DNA of 63,251 nucleotides, filler included, from Asterionella formosa (GCA_002256025.1; 11 parts of 11 records of this genome joined end to end with filler, not necessarily neighbours in it), one strand, 5' to 3'. Shown: positions 4,783 through 63,251, numbered from the whole stretch's first letter. A program made the numbers and translations. The notes: a model not told the origin generated them from the letters alone.

Positions 4783-5614
4783 GTAGTTGTTCGTGTTGTA
4801 GTCAACCTCTCGAAACGAGCGGTACTTAATAAAGGGTACTCTGGTCTAGTTAGGAGTGGAACATCAAGCAAGGGGAGAGTTGCAAGAACAGAAGGGTGTC
4901 GAACGTATACCGGTGCACCTATAGTCTGTTACAACACAAAATGGCTGATCCGCTTATTGCCACAGAATGTTGCCGATTTGAATTAATAAAATTATGGCGC
5001 GCTATAAGGTCAGCTAAATAAATGTGGCGCGCCAACCTAATCTCTATTACAACCTTCACGTGGGACAGTACATAGCCATGTTATTTGTTGGTCCGACGTA
5101 CGTATGCAAGGCTAATGCAAACGAGGACATCAGTGCAGACGAGCACGATCAAACGTAAACGCTATTACGTCACATCAAAGTCCCGCAAGGAAAGCAGTTG
5201 TGATGGGTGGTTATTATCCAAGTGGCAGGAAGGGGTTAGCATATATTATTTTGGCTCAGATATAGTTATATCTCATTGTTTTGTGGATTTGACAGAATTG
5301 GACCATGGGAAGGCATTCTGAAAAAATACAATTTTTGCACAAACGTGTCTGAAAATGAACTAACAGTCAGCCAGGGAAATTCATGACTTTTCACACAATG
5401 CGAATTTTCTAGTCGCATACAGAACAAGCATGTATTATTGCATGTCTATATTAAGAGGCAAAATGACCTAATCAAGATTCTATAGATTTATGAACCATGA
5501 CAATTAGTGTTTACATGAAACTCAGAACAAAATTATACATTGCTGGCTGAGGTATTGGGCACACTCTGGCATTAAAAAATATTATACCATGTGTATTATA
5601 ACACAAATTGTTGT

Positions 5615-5937
5615 TGAGGTAATGGCTTAGTGGTTTAGCACGTTGTCTTTTATCTGAAGTTGGGTTCGACTCCCACACTCCTTACCGTCCCACACAGTCT
5701 TGCCTGGTGTACAATAAATAGTGGATTGCCCCCCAACACGCAGCTTGTGCTGCCTTCCTAGGCGGTCGGAGTTTTCCCTTATGATACGGCTAAGACGATC
5801 ACCTTTCGCGAAAGGTGGTTGGGGACTCACCTACGCTAACAAAACTAGGGAAACACAGGTCTTGTTGGCAGGTAGCACAATGACAGACTTGCCTAGAAAT
5901 AGGGGAGCACAAATGGGCTATAAAACATACTAACTTT
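5615..5937 (+). mobile_element. tRNA-derived SINE-like element, copy 1
   Basis: A box TGGCTTAGTGG (5623-5633) and B box GGTTCGACTCC (5663-5673). Flanked by a perfect 19-bp direct repeat TTATAACACAAATTGTTGT (5596-5614 and 5938-5956). Body is homologous to 6281-6545. Confidence 0.85.
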
Positions 5938-6190
5938 TTATAACACAAATTGTTGTACCAATATCCCAAAAATTTGGTCAACACAAACACACATTTTTTA
6001 CAATTATAAATAACAGTGTGTTAATATAGAAGTGGATGTCTAGGCATGAATAACTACAAACAATTTCCCATATTATTTCAAGACATGCTTGCCCATGCCG
6101 AAAATGGCTTGCTCTCACCAAAATAGGTATCGGTATGCATAAACATATACATATCAATCATCCTAAAGGGATATTAGATGTTCGTCAATT

Positions 6191-6556
6191 AAGGAATGGC
6201 ATACGGTAGTTGGTTGAGCACGTTGCCTTTGATCTGAGGTTGTGAGTTTCGATTCCCGCAATTTTTTTGAGAAGCAATTCTTGGGTTCGACTCCCACACT
6301 CCTTACCGTCCCGCACGGTCTTGCCTGGTGTGCAAGAAATAGTGGGTTGCCCTCCTACAAGCAGCTTGTGCTGCCTTCCTAGGCGGTCGGAGTTTCCCCT
6401 AACGCTGCGGCTAAGATGATCATCTTTCGTGAAGGGTGGTTGGGGACTCACTTACGCTAACAAAACTAGGGAAGACAGGACTTGTCGGCAGGCAGCACAA
6501 TGAATACTTGCCTTGAAAAAGGGGAGTAGGAATGGGCTATAAAACAAATTATCATT
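6191..6556 (+). mobile_element. tRNA-derived SINE-like element, copy 2
   Basis: tRNA-like head and the same body as copy 1. Flanked by a different 17-bp direct repeat TTAGATGTTC(G/A)TCAATT (6174-6190 and 6557-6573, one mismatch). Confidence 0.85.
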
Positions 6557-9500
6557 TTAGATGTTCATCAATTGTCTGCCACCATTTATGTTGTGATCAT
6601 GTCTTCTTGCTCACAATCCACCTGCAATACAATCTGAGTGGTTGCACTATCAATGTATGTGCAGTGTCTGTACTGGTTGCCGACAATAAAGCAAAATGAA
6701 GAAACTGAGTGCATTTTTTTATTCTATAAATTAGTTTGTTAGCTTTAATATTGCTACATTGTCATCAAGTGCCTCATGAAAGTGTCTTGCCACATCACTT
6801 GGACTGGCTGCATAATTGCGCCTGACAGGCCCCCATAAGTTTCATGTCCTTGCTCCTTGACCGTGGTATATGCTTTTCGCAAGTGTGTAATGGCTTCTCC
6901 ATGCATACATTCCCTCCTTGTACTTGACTCCCCAATAGCACCATTTAGGATATACTCTAACACAGAGTTTGAAATGTCGGGTTTGTCTCCAAGTTTCAAT
7001 AAATTCTTTCTCTCAACATCATCATGGTCCACAATGATTTGTTTTGCTGCCTCAAATTTCAGTGTCTCGTATTGTCCATTACCTTTGTTACCAGTGCTTG
7101 ATTTTCCAAATTTTGAGTCGAATCCGCATGGTGTCCAATAGTCGTGCACGATACATTTCCTTGTGTCGTGTCTTGCATAATGGCTGTCCTGAACCGTATG
7201 AATCTCCCAGTACTGTGTTCCCTAGTGCCATGGCTTGTTTGAAGTGTTTCTTCGCCTCATGGCATCATCGTCATCATCAGAAGATGAGAGTCAAGCCGAC
7301 ATGGTCAGTGACCAACAATTGTGAAATCATGGAACTCATGTATATAGTGCACAAGAGGCGGCAAATCACAAAAGAGGACGCATCGCTATGAAACTGAAAC
7401 TTTTATAAATTAGTGTTAAATTTACAGCTGATTTCAGATAAATAATCTAAAATATCTCGATTATGAGAGCACAACGATGTTATAATGAATCAAATCGCCA
7501 AATAATTTGTGTTTTAATACACACATGATATGATAATCCCATTTTTTACATTTTGAGATGTTGCGACCTCGCCAAGATTTCTATTGCTCAAGTTTCCTCA
7601 TCAATTGGTGATTTATAAAGAATATAGAAATAATTATCTCATAGAAGTTATCAAGCAAGCTAGCAGTCACAGCAGACTCAACAATGTCTCGTTTTATTAT
7701 TAGTATAATTTGAACTGGTACCAGTAGTCCTACATAAGGATATGAAACCATGCAAAGGTTGAGACGCACAACATACTGGTACCAGCCAGTAATTGCCTGG
7801 TATATCTACTCTAGCTACTAAACTACTGTCCATAGAGCTGTACAGACCATCTTCACATAGTATCGTAAGTACAACATGCATGCGTTGAGCATTGTCTAGT
7901 AGGTATGACATTATATTTCAGGCAGCAAGTACCAGTATATCATGAAACCAACCCTGATAAACTGTCAATTTCAATGAAAATACAAAAATTGTAAACACGA
8001 ATTCCCTGGACTAGCTCATTGTGCATGTCGGACACTTTCGTGCAAAAGTGTTATGGACCAAGGCATTCCCGCTGCCAGGGCCAACATTCGCTATGTGGAT
8101 GTGGTTGCTTTCCACGAGCCCCTCTACAAGCTCCTCTCTGGCAATACACACCAACAACCAGCCAGCTCCACTCAAGGAACAACTAGATACTATACTAGCT
8201 ATCTTTACCACCAACAAGATCGCCACGGCAGCATGTCTAAGGTTAGGTCAGAACAGTGCGAACTACTATTTTGAGTCCTCAAAGTCATTACCCATCTGTG
8301 TATATTACCCCGTTTTTGGACTAAAATTAGAAAAGTCCTCAGCCAACCCCAATTAACACCCTTTTAATAGAGGTCGACTAATGCATGCAAGTACGAGATA
8401 AATGAATCATTTTAACAATTGGAAGTATATATCTTATGATATCGAACTTTTTAAGTCGTTCATAGTGGTCTTATTTTATGGTAAACAGTTTGCAAATAAT
8501 ACCTGGTTTTCCGTATTTTCTCCGATTTTTTGTGTCAACTGACGTCGATTTTTGTGCGAACACATAAACTACGCTTCCATAACCACAACTTCATCCTCGT
8601 CATCCTCTTCAGCTGAGGCTGCTGGTGACAGTATGGGACTGGTGCATCGCCACGTCCCATTGTATCAACATACCTAGTAAGCATTAGTTGTTTTGTTGCA
8701 TGTCATGCATGGCTGGTGCCATTATTTTGTACCTCAACACCATTTTTTTTGTTTGCGCCACCGTCCATTTTTGTGGCTGTTTGTTAAGCGCTCTGATCGC
8801 TTGCACCTTGTTCAATGTTGCTGTTTATTCCATAACTTTCTTATTCGCTTTCTCACTCGCCTCTGCCCTATTTTTCCTCCTAGTCATATCGTCCAGTGCT
8901 TCCGTTCTTCAGTTTAAAGCATTCAGCCACCACATGAAGTCCTGCCATATACCTTTTATTTTGCGCGATCGCCAATAGCGCCGACTGGCGAGCCATCTGA
9001 TCAAGGTTGATGCCAACCACTTGCTTGTGGTTCTGGAGGACGTTTCATGGTCTCAATGGCAGCACGTTTTTCGTTTGTATTCCTCCCCCCCCCCCCTTTC
9101 TCACCGGTAAGTTGTGTTTGTTGTGTCTCATGCTGTTCCGGTCTATTGGCTAGATTATTGTTTCTCACACTACTGTTTTTGTCTACATTACATGCAACTG
9201 GTGTCAAAGTAGAGGATACAGTAGTGGTGGCTCTGGTTCCAAAGGTAAGTGTACTGCTAGTTTCAATTTGTTCTGCTGGGGAACAATCCAATGGCACTAT
9301 AGAATTTAAACCCCCTACTAGTATTAGATCTTTGTTGTCATTATTTAATTTCTTCAAAGGGTAGTACTTCACCATGTCTTTTGTTTAACATGTCTTTTTG
9401 TTTTCACCGTGTCTTTTGTTAGCCACGTTATTGTGCCAACTTTGTCTGCTACTAATCTAGCAAGCAATAGCACCATTTGGTAAAAGAGCTCCTCCATTGT

Positions 9501-27495: not shown

Positions 27496-29559
27496 CATAA
27501 TGTAGATGTTTAATTATATATTAACCATTTTCAAAGCGCATTCTTACTATTCGATTTCTTAAGTTGCCGTCGTTGCACTCCAGCATGGCCCATATTATGA
27601 GGTAGGGCAGTGGAAAGGTTTAGGTGGTTGTCCCTTTGGCACTCTTAATGTGGAAGAATTTTTTTAAAAACATTTTTGGTAGCTTTGCTCTTGGTTTAGT
27701 TCTCTTGCTTTGACTGCACTTCTTATGTCTGCCGGAGAATTGGATGGTGATTGTGAATAAATTGGGTTAAAAACTTCCATTTTTTACCCAATTTTGGTGG
27801 TTCTATTTGAATATCCATAACAATTGGTGATTCCGCCAGGGCTTCCAAATCATTGTTCTTGTCTTTGCCTTCATTGTCTTTGTCATCATAAAATTATTGC
27901 TTTGAGCAGTGCATCCAGCCCTGACGCATTTTCTTCATCATTGATTTCTTTGTTTCTTAGTCTTCTTCTTTACTCTCCTTGCTTGTCAATGTTTCTTAGC
28001 ACATCGCCATTCTTTTATTCTTCTTCTTGCACTGTAATAGCACTCACAGTCATAAAAAGGGTTAAACTTCTTCTTTTCCTTCTTCTTTTCTCTTGTTGTT
28101 GTCTTTGCATGATGGTTCTTCTTATGTTTGCGTTGTGTTGATACTATTGTCATGAATTCTTCAATTGCAATGTTTGTGTCAAAAGCCAAATCGACATCCA
28201 CGCAATTACTATTTTTCAGCGCTCCTATATTAAGCCTTGTCTGCTTTTCCATCTCCTTATCCTCCTCTTTCTGCGTTCTCTTTCTATCGGATTTCATTGT
28301 TACTATTGTATGGTTCTGTCCCCCATGAATGATTTGCTTGTTCTTTCTGTGCTTGTTTGGCCTCTTGGATAGCGCCTTTCGTCATGGCGAATCGGTCGTC
28401 TTTAGAAATTATTAACTATCAGGAACCAGAGTTCCCTGTAGCTTGAATACCACAAAATTTCGTGAACAGCGCTGTAGTCGTACTGTATTAGTCTTTTGTG
28501 CACTCGCCTTTACACATGGAAAAAAAATTTGTTGCTTAATTATTATACATACAAATTATGTTATGTTTGTGAGCATTCCATAGTGATTTCATAAAAGATT
28601 TTGTATTTACAGCACACAATACTATACTCATATTGCTTCCGCTAGTCTATGCAACAATCGATGCCAGAATAGCATTACAAAATCAAGCCAATCATACTAT
28701 ACACCATTTATTATGGAACGTTCCACTAAATAACATCGATAATTAGAACATGTTTCATCCAGAATTCAAACACAATATCACAAGGAGATATAGCTATGAA
28801 ACGACAAGGGAGTACATATTTTTTCAAAGAGTGTTAATGGTTAATTGCACTTTTTGCAGGAAAGTTTCTGAGAATGCACAGCAGGTACTAATTCAGCACT
28901 ACAGTAATTACTAGTTGTATCAATTTCCAATGAAAGTTTGTATTGCCAACTTCTGTTTCGATTTCTTGGTAATAGGTTCATTGTCAATAGACTCAATGAA
29001 TGAATACTAAGAAGGCGAAGATAAACAGGAAATATGTTCACACAAAATCAAAGCAAAGCAAGGAGGTAATTATAAAGCATGCTAGTAGCAAGCAAGTATG
29101 ACTAAAATTGCTTCTAAAGCACTTTTACACTAGAATGGTACAATTGAAATTGTTCCAATCTGTGTTGACCAAACAGGTTGATGGAGTCTTAGTGGTGCCT
29201 CAAATTTGTTCATACTCCCAAATTTGAGCAAACAAAACAATCATAAATTTGAGAGCTATCAAGAATGCATTTTTGCTTTCTTCCCATTGCCACCAGCAAT
29301 CAGTTTTAATAATTTCAAAAATAAATTTTCACCCTCAAAAACGCACTGCATAGTATTTACATTCTATTATGTTGTACAAACTCCCAGTAGATATCAGCAT
29401 GTTTCTACACATTCAAATATCATACATATATGCCAGGTATTAATATATGGAACTATACTGTGATATTATTTATCTGTTTTTTTGCCAGCTGACTACCTAT
29501 GCCAGTAGACATTCATGCTCAGCAGCCAATTTCGCACGATGCATGTACTTACTTGCTAT

Positions 29560-47747: not shown

Positions 47748-48722
47748 TGTTGAAAGGTCTCGTACTCCTTCCCGTCTGACGGAATCCTCTTACGTAAAAC
47801 TTACCTGTTATACCACTAGTATTGTTATCTTCTTTCTGCTGCTAGCCTTCGTGCTAGTTTTCGCTATTGACCTTACTCTGTCAATTCTCACTGTTTCTTA
47901 ATTATAAGATTAAACTAAAACTAAGTTTCAATCCCATTCATCACACTTCGAGAACCTGTTCTTCGTGTTCCCTTTTCGTTGATGTAAACCTTCTTCTGAT
48001 TGATCTAAGACATCAATCTCGTTAGCAAGCTTCTTGACATGGGAACGCACCATTTGACTCATTGGACTGTAGTCGAGTCCACAGTCCTTGTGACTCATTA
48101 TAGCCATTGATGCTATATTCTTGACATCCTCCTCGTTACCATGTTCAAGAAGTTCTAAAATTGTACCACTCAACACGGGTCCAGATAACCTTGTAAAAAT
48201 CTGCTCTTTGACATTCTTCGTCAAAATGTCTGCTGGATTGTTTTCTGATCTTAGAAAAACAATATGCAACTCACCCTCATCTATCATGTTCTTGACATGA
48301 TGAAACTTAATATCAATGTGTTTTTGTAGTGGACCTTGTTCCGTGATATTAAAATCCTCCTTGATCATATTTTTCATGAAGTCCACTGCATTCCTGGTAC
48401 CACAAATAATTCCATCATCCACATAGTTTGCCAACAGCCCTTCAATTTGTCCATCGTTGTTACGGTAGATAAACAACATTGGATCTATTTCGCTTTTCGT
48501 TATACCTGTCTTGCTGGTGATGCATTTCGCAAATGTCTTGGACCAGCATCTTGGAGCTTGTACACTTCCATACATAGCCTTAATTAATTTGCAGATATGT
48601 ATATTCTGATCGATCCCTGTCAATCCTTCTGGGGGCTCAATATAAATGTCTTCGTCGACTTCAGCATTTAAAAACGCTGCTTCAACATCGATTGCTTCCG
48701 CTATCCAACCATAGTACAAAGT
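47748..48722 (-). mobile_element. Ty1/Copia remnant with internally deleted RT/RNase H and a 3' LTR
   Basis: IDVEAAFLN, KLIKAMYG.VQAPR.W, YVDD, HIDIKFH, NPADILTKN. PPT GAGGAGGA, then TGTCAAG (48126) ... TCAACA (47748) on the - strand. Confidence 0.85.
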
Positions 48723-48892
48723 TGTTGAAATATATGGCGCTACTCTAGCGCGCTCCAGTACTGCCCTGGAATGACCGGTCAAGATCTTTCTCACGCCGCT
48801 CGTCTGCAGCTTCTTCTGCTATATAAATCCTGTCTATTTCCGTTTAGACATTCCTCAGACTACCTAGTCTTCGGACACCTGTCGACATCAAC
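48723..48892 (+). mobile_element. Possible second LTR abutting the Copia RT
   Basis: Starts TGTTGA, ends TCAACA, contains TATATAAA. Located where RT homology stops. No TSD seen. Confidence 0.45.
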
Positions 48893-50977: not shown

Positions 50978-52196
50978 TGTTGAATATATGAGCTTATTAA
51001 TTAATCCTTATGTATAACTCATTTCCTGAACTGACATCAAAAGTATAGAATGGGTGTTAGTCGAGTTCTCTCATTATTGAATTCCGATATATTTGACATA
51101 ACCCCAACTCTATATATATCTGTATCGATGTGCAGGATTGCTCACTCTCCCACACTTGAGGGAAAACCTTTTACCTATGAAAAGGTTTGATACGACGAAT
51201 ATTAATTCGTTCGGTAATATGCATAGTGCGTTGAAAAGTAACTGTACCATTGGCATGTACTTGAATAATAGTATAAGGACCTCGTCCACGATCATCCAAA
51301 GTAGTAGGATTATCCAATAATATTAAAATCTCGTCACCCACTTTGTAATCATAAGATCGACGACGGAAATTTGCACGACGTAAACGTTCGTCAATTATCA
51401 CCTGTCGACGTTGATGTATTAATTGTAAATCTGTAATCAAAGGAATATTTAATATCATATCACGTTGGAAAACCCATGCTCCTGGTGAAATACGTAATAT
51501 ACTATGAATAGTAGCTCGAGCTGCATATGACGCAGCTGCAAAACATGTATCCACAATATTTTGGGCTTGAAATTCATTGATTGGAGGATGAGCCTTTAAC
51601 ATAACTCGTAGACTATTGCTGATAGATTGATGGAAACGTTCACAGATAGCATTTGCTTGTGGATTCTTTACTGTGGTAGTCACATCTTTGATTCCATTCA
51701 ATACTAACATGTGTAAGAAAGGAGCACCAGTAAATTCACCTCCATTGTCATGTATACAACGTTCTGGACGGGGATATCTGGCTAACCAATCATTTTCAAA
51801 TTTCATTGCAATATATTCTGATGTTTTATTGATGATACGTGAAATTTCTGCTAAATTGGTGACTGTGTCAATACAAGTTAGAGCACGAAATTCAATCGTT
51901 TGAGCAGCCACTGTTATCTTCCATGGACCAATTAGATCTACTGCGACTTCTGACCATGGTAATAATAATGCATTCCTGGGTGGAAGTTCACCAAAACCAG
52001 TACCAGGTAATTTTGTACGTTGACATGCTTCACATACTCTTACAATATGTTCCACTCTTGTTTTTAATATAGGGTGATAAAAATGTGTAGCAATTGTAGC
52101 ATTTAATCTTGTCATACCCACATGAGCTAACATCTGATGATACCAATTAATAATAGGATCCAATAATGATGTAGGAATAGCAATACGCCAAGTATC
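50978..52196 (-). mobile_element. Ty3/Gypsy retrotransposon 3' end: integrase, PPT and short LTR
   Basis: HHCC zinc motif (YHQMLAHVG...CEAC), DDE core (VDLIGP, IHDNGGEF, NAICER), GPY/F motif (GPYTI). Purine-rich tract, then TGAG (51144) ... CAACA (50978). Confidence 0.92.
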
Positions 52197-52520
52197 NNNN
52201 NNNNNNNNNNNNNNNNNNNNNNNNNNNNNNNNNNNNNNNNTTAATTAATTAANNNNNNNNNNNNNNNNNNNNNNNNNNNNNNNNNNNNNNNNNNNNGGTA
52301 CCAGGTACCAAGTAGTTCAATGACAAGACAGCAACATCGCTCAAATTGCGGGAAAAACTAACTAATTCCCAAATGGGAATCATAATATTTCATTTATATA
52401 ACTAGTCTAATAGAAATATTTTACTTTTTTTATAATGGTTTTGTCATCCTACGTCACAGTAGATGGGTGGTTGACAGCATTTAGGATTTCCCAAAAACCG
52501 ATAGCATCGTTTTTTCGTCA

Positions 52521-61773: not shown

Positions 61774-62150
61774 ATGGTTCCTCCACCTGAAATGAAAATA
61801 CCTCCAACTGCTGACACACTCGACATTGACGAGATGGATCCATCCGAAAATGTCATACCTGCAACTACTACTGGTACACTTCTTGACATTAACGAGATTC
61901 TTGGTCCCCCTGAAAAGAGGAAACCCTTTCCCGGTTGGCTAGCCAATATTGATGAGTTCGTCAACTCGCTCATAGTACCAGATGACTTTATTCTGGATGA
62001 AAGTGGGCTGGGATTGATTCATATAAAAGGAATCGACATAAAACATATATCTGTCAAGGTACTTCGAAAAATTTGCGTGAGATTTAAAGTGTCAGGGTAC
62101 AGGAATGGCAAGAAGGACTCCACTATTTCCTTAATTGTCCGTTTACTGAA
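61774..62150 (+). pseudogene. Truncated accessory ORF of a Harbinger element
   Basis: Convergent to the transposase. IDIKHISVKVLRKICVRFKVSGYRNGKKD is a helix-loop-helix (SAP-like) pattern. The frame then runs into antisense transposase sequence. Confidence 0.5.
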
Positions 62151-63160
62151 AAGAGGTTTTTTTTCAGAACACACCATTTTGTCTGAAGAAGACCAAATGC
62201 CATTTCTATTCTTATCCTTAGCTGTGAAAGGAAAAAGTTAAATGTATCCTGTGTTGGATCATCACGTTGTGAGCCAACAAAGGTAACAAGCATTACATCA
62301 GACAATGTGTAAGCTGCATCGCCGACCAGATAAAAACCTGTGTTGAATGCTGCAACTCGATCGAAAATGGAAGTTCGTTCAAAAGCTACTTGGTCACTGC
62401 ATTTTCCCGTTGCAATTACACCAAAATAAATAAATCTTGAGTCAGCATCACAAACAGCCTGGACATTGATTCCATAAGTCATGTAGTGACCGGAAAAAAA
62501 TGAACCAGGGTTGTTGCCACTTTCAACTATAGTCGGGCGGTTGATGGTGGCTAGGAAGCCGTCAATAGCACCAACACATCCTCTCATCATGCCCTCTGAG
62601 CTTTTGCATTCAAAGCTGGAAGCCAATTTGATAAATTCTTCTTGTTCTTTTGGAAAAACAATTTCGAGTTCTCCACAGTTTAGTACAGCATCAATGAACA
62701 AATCACGACATCGATAAAGTGAAGCAATGCTACAGCCGTCGGCATGACGAATGTCGATGTAACTGCCACCAGCCAGCCATCGCAAACCAATGGCTACCAC
62801 AATTTCGGGAATTATGGGCTCAGAAGTGCCACATTTGGAATAATTCCCTGCAATCTGAATTTCCAGCATGGAGGTGAGTTTTTTGAATGCTCTGTGTGAC
62901 ATTCTGTATGTCTTCTCGAAAGCAATCTCGTGATTGAGTTTCTCGACATGTGATTGCCAGGAGATTCTTTCGTGGTGCCACTTGTGCCTTCGTTGTCGTC
63001 GTCGTTCAGATGACTGAAGCTGCCGTTTACAGCGTCGCCTTTGTCGTTTGGATGAGTGTTCTTTTTCCTCTGCTTCCTTAGCTAAATGACAGAGGAAGAA
63101 GAAATCAAGATCACTACTGTCATCGTCATTATCATCAAGTAAATCAAATGGCGACGACAT
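62123..63160 (-). mobile_element. PIF/Harbinger (HARBI1-like, DDE_Tnp_4) transposase, C-terminally truncated
   Basis: FEKTYRMS, LRWLAGGSY, GCVGAIDG, INVQAVCD, YLVGDAAY, RIRIEMAFGLL..KW. The usual terminal LHN helix is absent. Confidence 0.9.
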
Positions 63161-63251
63161 GATTCATGCAAATGTGTGTTTTTAATATTATATTTAGTTT
63201 CCCGGTAATTATATTTTGTTGTTGCTTGATATCAAGACCATCATTATATTC

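What the first reader, a model, noticed from the sequence alone, without database searches (positions are those of the whole stretch)
5596..6573. Two independent insertions of a tRNA-headed SINE family, each with its own target-site duplication
Seen: two ~320-370 bp homologous elements about 250 bp apart, with Pol III A/B boxes. Their flanking direct repeats differ (19 bp perfect; 17 bp with one mismatch), so they are not a tandem duplication. Established: a tRNA head plus a variable-length TSD is the signature of SINEs mobilised by target-primed reverse transcription. Inference: this is a SINE family in a lineage where SINEs are sparsely described, and the clustering may reflect a target preference (both TSDs start TTA).
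Basis: partly seen in the sequence, partly recalled or inferred. Interest (0 to 1): 0.8.

Follow-up and report, generated by a model that had tools for sequence, protein, structure and literature searches.

The report
Diatom SINE pair with partner LINE
Two copies of a short, tRNA-headed jumping element landed separately inside an older DNA transposon of a probable diatom, and their tail end matches the end of a larger resident retrotransposon that most likely copied them; this is a familiar kind of element in a group where it is barely described.

Summary
Observation confirmed. The elements at 5615-5937 and 6191-6556 belong to a dispersed ~360-bp family (140 exact hits to one 18-mer). 30 of 57 sampled complete copies have 10-21-bp TSDs, against 0 of 500 mismatched-flank controls. 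Both copies sit inside a repeated TIR element whose SINE-free paralogues hold each target once, and they belong to different subfamilies: two independent insertions. The head is 65% like a host tRNA-Ala. The last ~75 nt match the 3' end of a decayed APE-RT-RNase H LINE (score 46, 0 of 5000 shuffles) and share a predicted GAAA-capped stem-loop. The young poly(A) LINE does not match. Best reading: a tRNA SINE retroposed by that LINE lineage through tail recognition. Unexplained: a conserved internal T5-T8 run between two B-box arms, longer than the host's tRNA terminators. The 'TTA preference explains clustering' idea is weak. Pol III transcription is untested. The scan noted what looks like this family on other DNA of this genome before. 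New member of a known kind.

The parts
5557..7548 (.). Host element: non-autonomous TIR (DNA) transposon copy into which both SINEs inserted; left TIR about 5557-5612, decayed right TIR about 7501-7548
   Evidence: Spacer 5957-6170 has 248 candidates, 40 scored; complete paralogues L266 and L270 have ~60-bp TIRs and 3-bp flanking repeats
5596..5614 (+). Copy 1 left TSD (19 bp), at the inner end of the host's left TIR
   Evidence: present once in 13 SINE-free paralogous loci
5615..5937 (+). SINE copy 1, subfamily A, with a 41-nt internal deletion (first B-box arm and T-run lost)
   Evidence: 92.2% to the family consensus over the body
5623..5633 (+). A-box-like motif of copy 1
   Evidence: sequence
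5663..5673 (+). Second B-box arm (the only one left in copy 1)
   Evidence: sequence
5869..5925 (+). LINE-like 3' region of copy 1, with the GAAA-capped hairpin at 5892-5903
   Evidence: local alignment to the 3' end of LINE L229, score 55; structure counts
5938..5956 (+). Copy 1 right TSD (first 1-2 T may belong to the T-tail)
6174..6190 (+). Copy 2 left TSD (17 bp; the mismatch is a later change in this copy, since the paralogues match the right copy)
6191..6556 (+). SINE copy 2, subfamily B, full length
   Evidence: 95.1% to the consensus over the body
6197..6214 (+). A-box region with the 6-nt subfamily-B insertion
6246..6256 (+). First B box (tRNA T-arm), one G-to-T change in this copy
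6262..6268 (+). Internal T7 run; aligns to the 3' acceptor strand of tRNA-Ala; potential Pol III terminator
   Evidence: T5 or longer in 44 of 50 copies with a recognisable linker and 57 of 65 heads; alignment
6284..6294 (+). Second B-box arm, a diverged duplicate of the first
   Evidence: arm-to-arm alignment, 19 of 27
6475..6551 (+). LINE-like 3' region of copy 2, with the GAAA-capped hairpin at 6511-6522
   Evidence: score 51 against the L229 end
6557..6573 (+). Copy 2 right TSD

Best explanation
A non-autonomous tRNA-headed SINE family of at least a few hundred copies. A source copy is transcribed from its internal A/B-box promoter (inferred). The ORF2 protein of a resident APE-RT-RNase H LINE binds the stem-loop in the ~75-nt LINE-derived tail (inferred from shared sequence and structure, by analogy with stringent LINEs). 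Its endonuclease nicks AT-rich DNA, often at T/TA, and target-primed reverse transcription starts at the short U-rich 3' end. Staggered second-strand cleavage leaves a 10-21-bp TSD (the product is shown; the steps are established LINE biology). Two such events, from two subfamilies, hit the same old DNA transposon copy. Shown: family, ends, TSDs, empty sites, subfamilies, tRNA likeness, shared tail. Inferred: the polymerase, tail binding, and which LINE copy did the work.
For: Copy number: 140 exact 18-mer hits, control 0; 713, 522 and 345 first-look candidates with whole, head and tail queries. TSDs in 30 of 57 complete copies versus 0 of 500. Empty sites: 13 loci span site 1 and 8 span site 2 without the SINE. 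Head and tail types co-segregate in 50 of 57 copies (40 A/A, 10 B/B, 7 mixed). Head 47 of 72 identical to host tRNA-Ala(AGC). L229 is a ~7.7-kb decayed LINE colinear with an intact 2073-aa relative over residues 88-1998. RT in its near-twin L230 (E 8.7e-6) and weak RNase H in L229 (E 0.013); an endonuclease domain in relatives whose N-terminus aligns to that protein. Its last ~75 nt match the SINE's last ~75 nt (score 46, null mean 17, 0 of 5000). 9 of 21 loci tested beat all 30 shuffles; two other LINE families did not. Stem-loop: 95.2% of cells paired, 3 of 12 pairs changed on both sides, slid controls 25-44% paired.
Against: Pol III transcription is not shown, and a T5+ run sits right after the head in 44 of 50 copies, while host tRNA genes end at T4-T6 (20 of 20 loci). 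All LINE copies found with this tail are decayed, so no active partner was seen; the young intact LINE has a different poly(A) end. Tail identity is only about 70%. 27 of 57 complete copies have no TSD above threshold. 0 of 16 5'-short or interrupted hits have one, so truncation gives no support. The tRNA parent is not resolved: Ala 26.5, Lys 26.0, best shuffle 25.0; only 22 distinct nuclear tRNAs were compared. The structure set was 28 of 67 tails, picked by hand from a pattern that required the GAAA loop; the double changes are a few inherited events, and two of the five shuffle measures (pairs changed on both sides, further pair types) were not above shuffles.
Confidence: 0.85

Rival explanations
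1. SINE-like retroposon that is not made by Pol III as a full-length RNA: Pol III stops at the T-run, and copies arise from Pol II read-through transcripts whose 5' end is set by cleavage at the tRNA-like head (RNase P-like). The LINE step is the same.
For: The T-run is ancestral in both subfamilies (mode T7) and longer than host tRNA terminators. It can pair with the element's first bases as an acceptor stem, and the 5' end lies near tRNA position 1-4 (pairing read by eye).
Against: A and B boxes are conserved with normal spacing, and a second B box was kept. Internal T4-T5 runs occur in mollusc SINEs and read-through depends on context (PMC4758252, passage). The predicted fold of the head is not a cloverleaf.
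Confidence: 0.1
2. The tail is an old relic and the family was moved by a different LINE, such as the young abundant APE-RT LINE, without sequence-specific tail recognition.
For: The only intact, about 99%-identical LINE family found is another one; the tail-sharing LINE copies are all broken.
Against: That LINE ends in poly(A) and shows no match to the SINE tail, and the SINE has no poly(A). SINE copies are 3.6-20% from consensus (median 5.8%), so they need not be as young as that LINE. The stem-loop is kept across SINE subfamilies.
Confidence: 0.08
3. One insertion followed by local duplication, or a MITE, Helitron or solo LTR misread as a SINE.
For: The copies are 253 bp apart in the same orientation; tandem copies sharing a target exist elsewhere (L021).
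Against: Different TSDs, different subfamilies, and empty paralogues colinear across both sites. No terminal inverted repeats in the element. TSD length varies from 10 to 21 bp, unlike DNA transposons or LTRs (established knowledge).
Confidence: 0.02

Closest known systems
tRNA-derived SINEs (Repbase SINE2/tRNA; SINEBase definition, PMC3531059, section 'Definitions' read)
   Same: Under 700 bp, interspersed, over 100 copies, tRNA-like head, unrelated body, LINE-derived 3' part, simple tail, variable TSDs; an internal duplication is allowed by that definition.
   Different: [quoted passage not shown] Conserved T7 run between two B-box arms.
Stringent SINE/LINE pairs with a 3' stem-loop (ZfL2-1/ZfL2-2, PMC4176376, abstract only; pairs tabulated in PMC3747384, passages)
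   Same: Shared ~75-nt 3' end with a predicted stem-loop at the very end of both elements.
   Different: The partner is an RNase H-bearing LINE with a ~2000-aa ORF2 whose named relatives are diatom proteins, not L2. Binding is untested. No diatom pair appears in PMC3747384 ('diatom' 0 hits).
Putative SINEs of Phaeodactylum tricornutum (PMC5859163, passages) and the SINE repeat class of Pleurosigma (PMC12803021, passages)
   Same: SINE-labelled repeats in diatoms.
   Different: 13 elements totalling 1,454 bp in Phaeodactylum; no head, TSD or partner data in the passages seen. Sequences were not compared (supplements not read).
Ambal clade LINEs (name listed in PMC5753468 Table 2; LINE/Ambal in a diatom in PMC12803021; domain layout recalled, from no call)
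   Same: The partner has endonuclease, RT and RNase H in a long ORF2 and diatom relatives.
   Different: Clade membership not tested: no reference Ambal sequence was available and no tree was built.
Plant Au SINEs (T2-5 tail in PMC3747384 Table 2, passage) and mollusc Vhc SINEs (internal T4-T5, PMC4758252, passage)
   Same: Short oligo-T tail; internal T-runs tolerated.
   Different: No sequence comparison made. Here the internal run is T7 and is followed by G, not the C that the mollusc paper links to read-through.

Membership tests
tRNA SINE (SINEBase criteria) | Short (<1 kb), interspersed, non-tandem repeat | tested here: met
   About 360 bp; 73 distinct sites with different flanks among 90 loci
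tRNA SINE (SINEBase criteria) | [quoted passage not shown] | tested here: met
   140 exact hits to an 18-mer carried by 30 of 57 sampled copies; some hits may be allelic contigs
tRNA SINE (SINEBase criteria) | At least 60% identity to a tRNA over at least 60 nt | tested here: met
   Consensus head 47 of 72 (65%) to tRNA-Ala(AGC), 63% to Lys; copy 2 head 59-61%; parent tRNA unresolved
tRNA SINE (SINEBase criteria) | Transcribed by Pol III from the internal promoter | not testable with these tools
   Only assembled contigs were served for 4 RNA runs; no starts, ends or strand
tRNA SINE (SINEBase criteria) | Not a tRNA pseudogene (has an extra body, outnumbers pseudogenes) | tested here: met
   About 290 nt of non-tRNA body and tail; ARAGORN and Rfam negative
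Non-LTR retroposition product | Variable-length TSD with a fixed 3' end and no TIR or LTR | tested here: met
   TSDs 10-21 bp in 30 of 57; empty sites; no terminal inverted repeat
Non-LTR retroposition product | 5'-truncated copies with their own TSD | tested here: not met
   0 of 16 5'-short or interrupted hits; at least 3 of the 16 are internally deleted or split full copies, including copy 1. Not required by the SINE definition
Stringent SINE/LINE pair | 3' end shared with a resident LINE | tested here: met
   Score 46, 0 of 5000 shuffles; 9 of 21 loci above shuffles, two other LINE families negative
Stringent SINE/LINE pair | Conserved stem-loop in the shared tail | tested here: inconclusive
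   95.2% paired, 3 double-change pairs, but a selected and related set
Stringent SINE/LINE pair | ORF2 binds the tail and mobilises the SINE in trans | not testable with these tools
   Needs a binding or retrotransposition assay
Ambal clade (partner LINE) | RT phylogeny groups with reference Ambal elements | not tested
   No reference sequence at hand; literature searches for the clade gave only name mentions

The most novel reading that the evidence does not exclude
A diatom retroposon whose tRNA head has turned its acceptor strand into a T7 run that should stop Pol III at about 70 nt, yet whose full-length RNA was copied hundreds of times. Either diatom Pol III reads through T7 in this context (perhaps helped by the second B box or the hairpin that buries the run), acting as a built-in throttle, or the RNA is cut out of Pol II transcripts at the tRNA-like head. 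It is coupled to an RNase H LINE through a GAAA stem-loop shared by at least three other non-autonomous families.
Probability: 0.15. Interest if true: 0.65.

Novelty: new member of a known kind. Interest (0 to 1): 0.4.

Why it matters
SINEs in diatoms appear in the papers found only as small or software-labelled classes. Here head, TSDs, empty sites, subfamilies and a candidate partner LINE are all documented. It extends stringent-type SINE/LINE pairing to stramenopiles and to an RNase H LINE lineage, supplies insertion markers for strain work, and gives a natural test case for Pol III termination rules in diatoms. The mechanism class itself is textbook.

Tried and rejected
ARAGORN and Rfam: nothing. 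PF14529 search of the genome: 0 of 42 candidates. Young APE-RT LINE (L090-L103): no tail match, poly(A) end. A second RNase H LINE fragment (L160) has a different tail. Of 20 further RT loci fetched, none matched the SINE; the ORFs visible in the cut output were mostly LTR-type, and one was telomerase-like. 5' truncation or 'twin-priming inversion' as evidence: rejected, 0 of 16 have TSDs and L170 has two 3' ends head to head; my notebook entry 2 was wrong on this and is corrected in entry 4. No 5' TSD was found for LINE L229. RNA runs: 4 of 10 listed runs laid, all contigs, mostly running on into unlike sequence; depth over the SINE is higher than over the flanks, but this cannot show polymerase, ends or strand. 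One contig skipping 6169-6574 is probably another copy of the host transposon, not proof of polymorphism. One search misfiled 4 SINE tails (L004, L022, L173, L186) as LINE-type. The light-harvesting ORF search did not fix the host group. Literature: no description of this family or of a diatom SINE/LINE pair. The library lacks most subscription papers; Repbase, Dfam and SINEBase sequences could not be searched; supplements of PMC5859163 and PMC12803021 were not read and may hold SINE sequences.

Full report
Observation. Copy 1 spans 5615-5937 between perfect 19-bp repeats. Copy 2 spans 6191-6556 between 17-bp repeats with one mismatch. The bodies are 88.5% identical. Copy 1 lacks 41 nt of the head. 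The host is probably a diatom: a light-harvesting ORF lies on the same contig, and the named relatives of the resident LINE are diatom proteins. This is an inference; one search did not settle it.

Family. Searches of the 68.4-Mb assembly gave 713, 522 and 345 first-look candidates, of which 40 each were scored. An 18-mer from the second B-box arm has 140 exact hits and the reversed control none; 30 of 57 sampled copies carry it exactly, which points to a few hundred copies. The sample is made of best-scoring hits and leans to young copies. Among 90 loci there were 73 distinct sites with a 3' end, 57 of them complete at the 5' end. Thirty of the 57 have a TSD of 10-21 bp, against 0 of 500 mismatched flank pairs. 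None of the 16 5'-short or interrupted hits has one; at least three of these are split full copies. Divergence from consensus is 3.6-20%, median 5.8%. Two subfamilies differ in the A box and in the last 12 nt: 40 A/A, 10 B/B, 7 mixed. Copy 1 is A, copy 2 is B.

Independence. The DNA between and around the copies is itself a repeat (248 candidates): a 1.4-kb element with ~60-bp TIRs, a 3-bp flanking repeat in 2 of 2 complete copies checked, and no ORF over 115 aa in the one translated. That layout recalls PIF/Harbinger-type non-autonomous elements (recalled, not tested). SINE-free paralogues run across site 1 in 13 loci and across site 2 in 8 loci, with the target present once; 4 of the 8 show the whole site-2 target, 3 have a small deletion there and 1 is diverged. 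Three of these loci are near-identical to each other. This is direct evidence of two insertions, each duplicating its own target.

Head. The consensus head is 47 of 72 identical to host nuclear tRNA-Ala(AGC), with Lys close behind; 22 distinct nuclear tRNAs of 18 anticodons were compared, so the parent is open. This meets the SINEBase rule of 60% over 60 nt (PMC3531059, 'Definitions' section). After the first B box comes a T-run, then a diverged duplicate of the B-box arm. The run is T5 or longer in 44 of 50 copies with a recognisable linker (7 more had none) and in 57 of 65 heads in a wider set. It aligns with the 3' acceptor strand of tRNA-Ala, so it may have arisen by C-to-T drift (inference). 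Host tRNA genes have their first run at T4, T5 or T6 (9, 5 and 6 of 20 loci). Full-length RNA must therefore have passed a signal that should stop Pol III. Internal T4-T5 runs are known in mollusc SINEs (PMC4758252, passage), so this is unusual in degree, not in kind.

Tail and partner. The young, abundant APE-RT LINE ends in poly(A) and does not match. A 70% match to another repeat beside a SINE copy (L055) led to a set of elements with a common end (203 candidates). Two of the 30 loci fetched run upstream into RNase H coding sequence. L229 is a decayed ~7.7-kb LINE, colinear with an intact 2073-aa relative over residues 88-1998, with RT, RNase H and, through relatives, endonuclease support. 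The SINE's last ~75 nt match its last ~75 nt (score 46; 0 of 5000 shuffles). Of 21 loci tested, 9 beat all 30 shuffles (two pairs among them are the same or twin contigs), 10 related loci did not, some lacking the 3' end, and two other LINE families did not. On 28 of 67 tails (15 SINE, 13 LINE-type) RNAalifold gives an outer helix and a GAAA-capped hairpin; 95.2% of cells pair and three pairs change on both sides, while slid controls pair at 25-44%. The set was selected and related, so this is moderate support. In zebrafish stringent LINEs ORF2 binds such a stem-loop (PMC4176376, abstract); the same role here is an inference.

Target choice. TSDs begin with T in 25 of 30 and TA in 16 of 30. 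The SINE ends in T3-T4 and the LINE-type ends are (TA)n-like, so pairing of the RNA end with the nicked target and a nicking preference cannot be told apart. This does not explain the closeness of the two copies: one other pair within 3 kb among the first 100 motif hits is near chance. A weak hint of a hot spot remains: in L171 a SINE end sits at the same position as copy 1 in another host copy (SINE part 130 of 136 identical, flank 164 of 240), and L170 abuts a host TIR.

Verdict. A real tRNA-headed SINE family with a probable stringent-type partner LINE, in a lineage where the papers found report SINEs only as small or software-labelled classes (PMC5859163 and PMC12803021, passages). No description of this family turned up in nine literature searches, but repeat databases could not be queried and supplements were not read. 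Earlier notes of this scan describe what appears to be the same family, and SINE/RNase H LINE tail sharing, elsewhere in this genome; they gave the lead to look at RNase H LINEs and are not counted as support. New member of a known kind; interest 0.4.

Noticed in passing
L090-L103, L120-L148 (e.g. L134, L147): A young APE-RT LINE family, about 99% identical, with a poly(A) end; copies are nested in each other and one locus runs into CCCTAA-type telomeric repeats, which hints at a subtelomeric or self-targeting element.
   Followed up: partly
L209, L215, L217, L219, L221, L223, L225-L228; L199, L205, L206, L212, L224; window 27515-27745 (-): At least two further non-autonomous families (a ~960-bp one and a ~1-kb one with ~170-bp tandem units) end in the same LINE tail; one diverged copy lies in this window.
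   Followed up: partly
L046:609-668 (+): A sister element with the same head (82% over 61 nt) but a different body and no T-run.
   Followed up: no
L021: Two SINE copies in tandem with three copies of one target sequence (site-SINE-site-SINE-site).
   Followed up: no
L026, L192, L017, L002: Variants with an extra B-box arm or with the T-run or first arm deleted between short repeats; the head region is prone to slippage.
   Followed up: partly
L055:~1480-1957: A SINE inserted in antisense right at the tail of a LINE-tailed element.
   Followed up: no
window 6754-7221 (-): A 155-aa stop-free stretch inside the host transposon copy, partly absent from paralogues; possibly a captured fragment.
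   Followed up: no
L149 (G000:C10287): A 1058-aa open frame that reads like telomerase reverse transcriptase (recognised by eye).
   Followed up: no
window 62123-63163 (-), 51171-52244 (-), 47928-48818 (-): ORFs that read like a Harbinger-type transposase, a Gypsy integrase and a Copia RT fragment (by eye); these lie off contig C2241.
   Followed up: no
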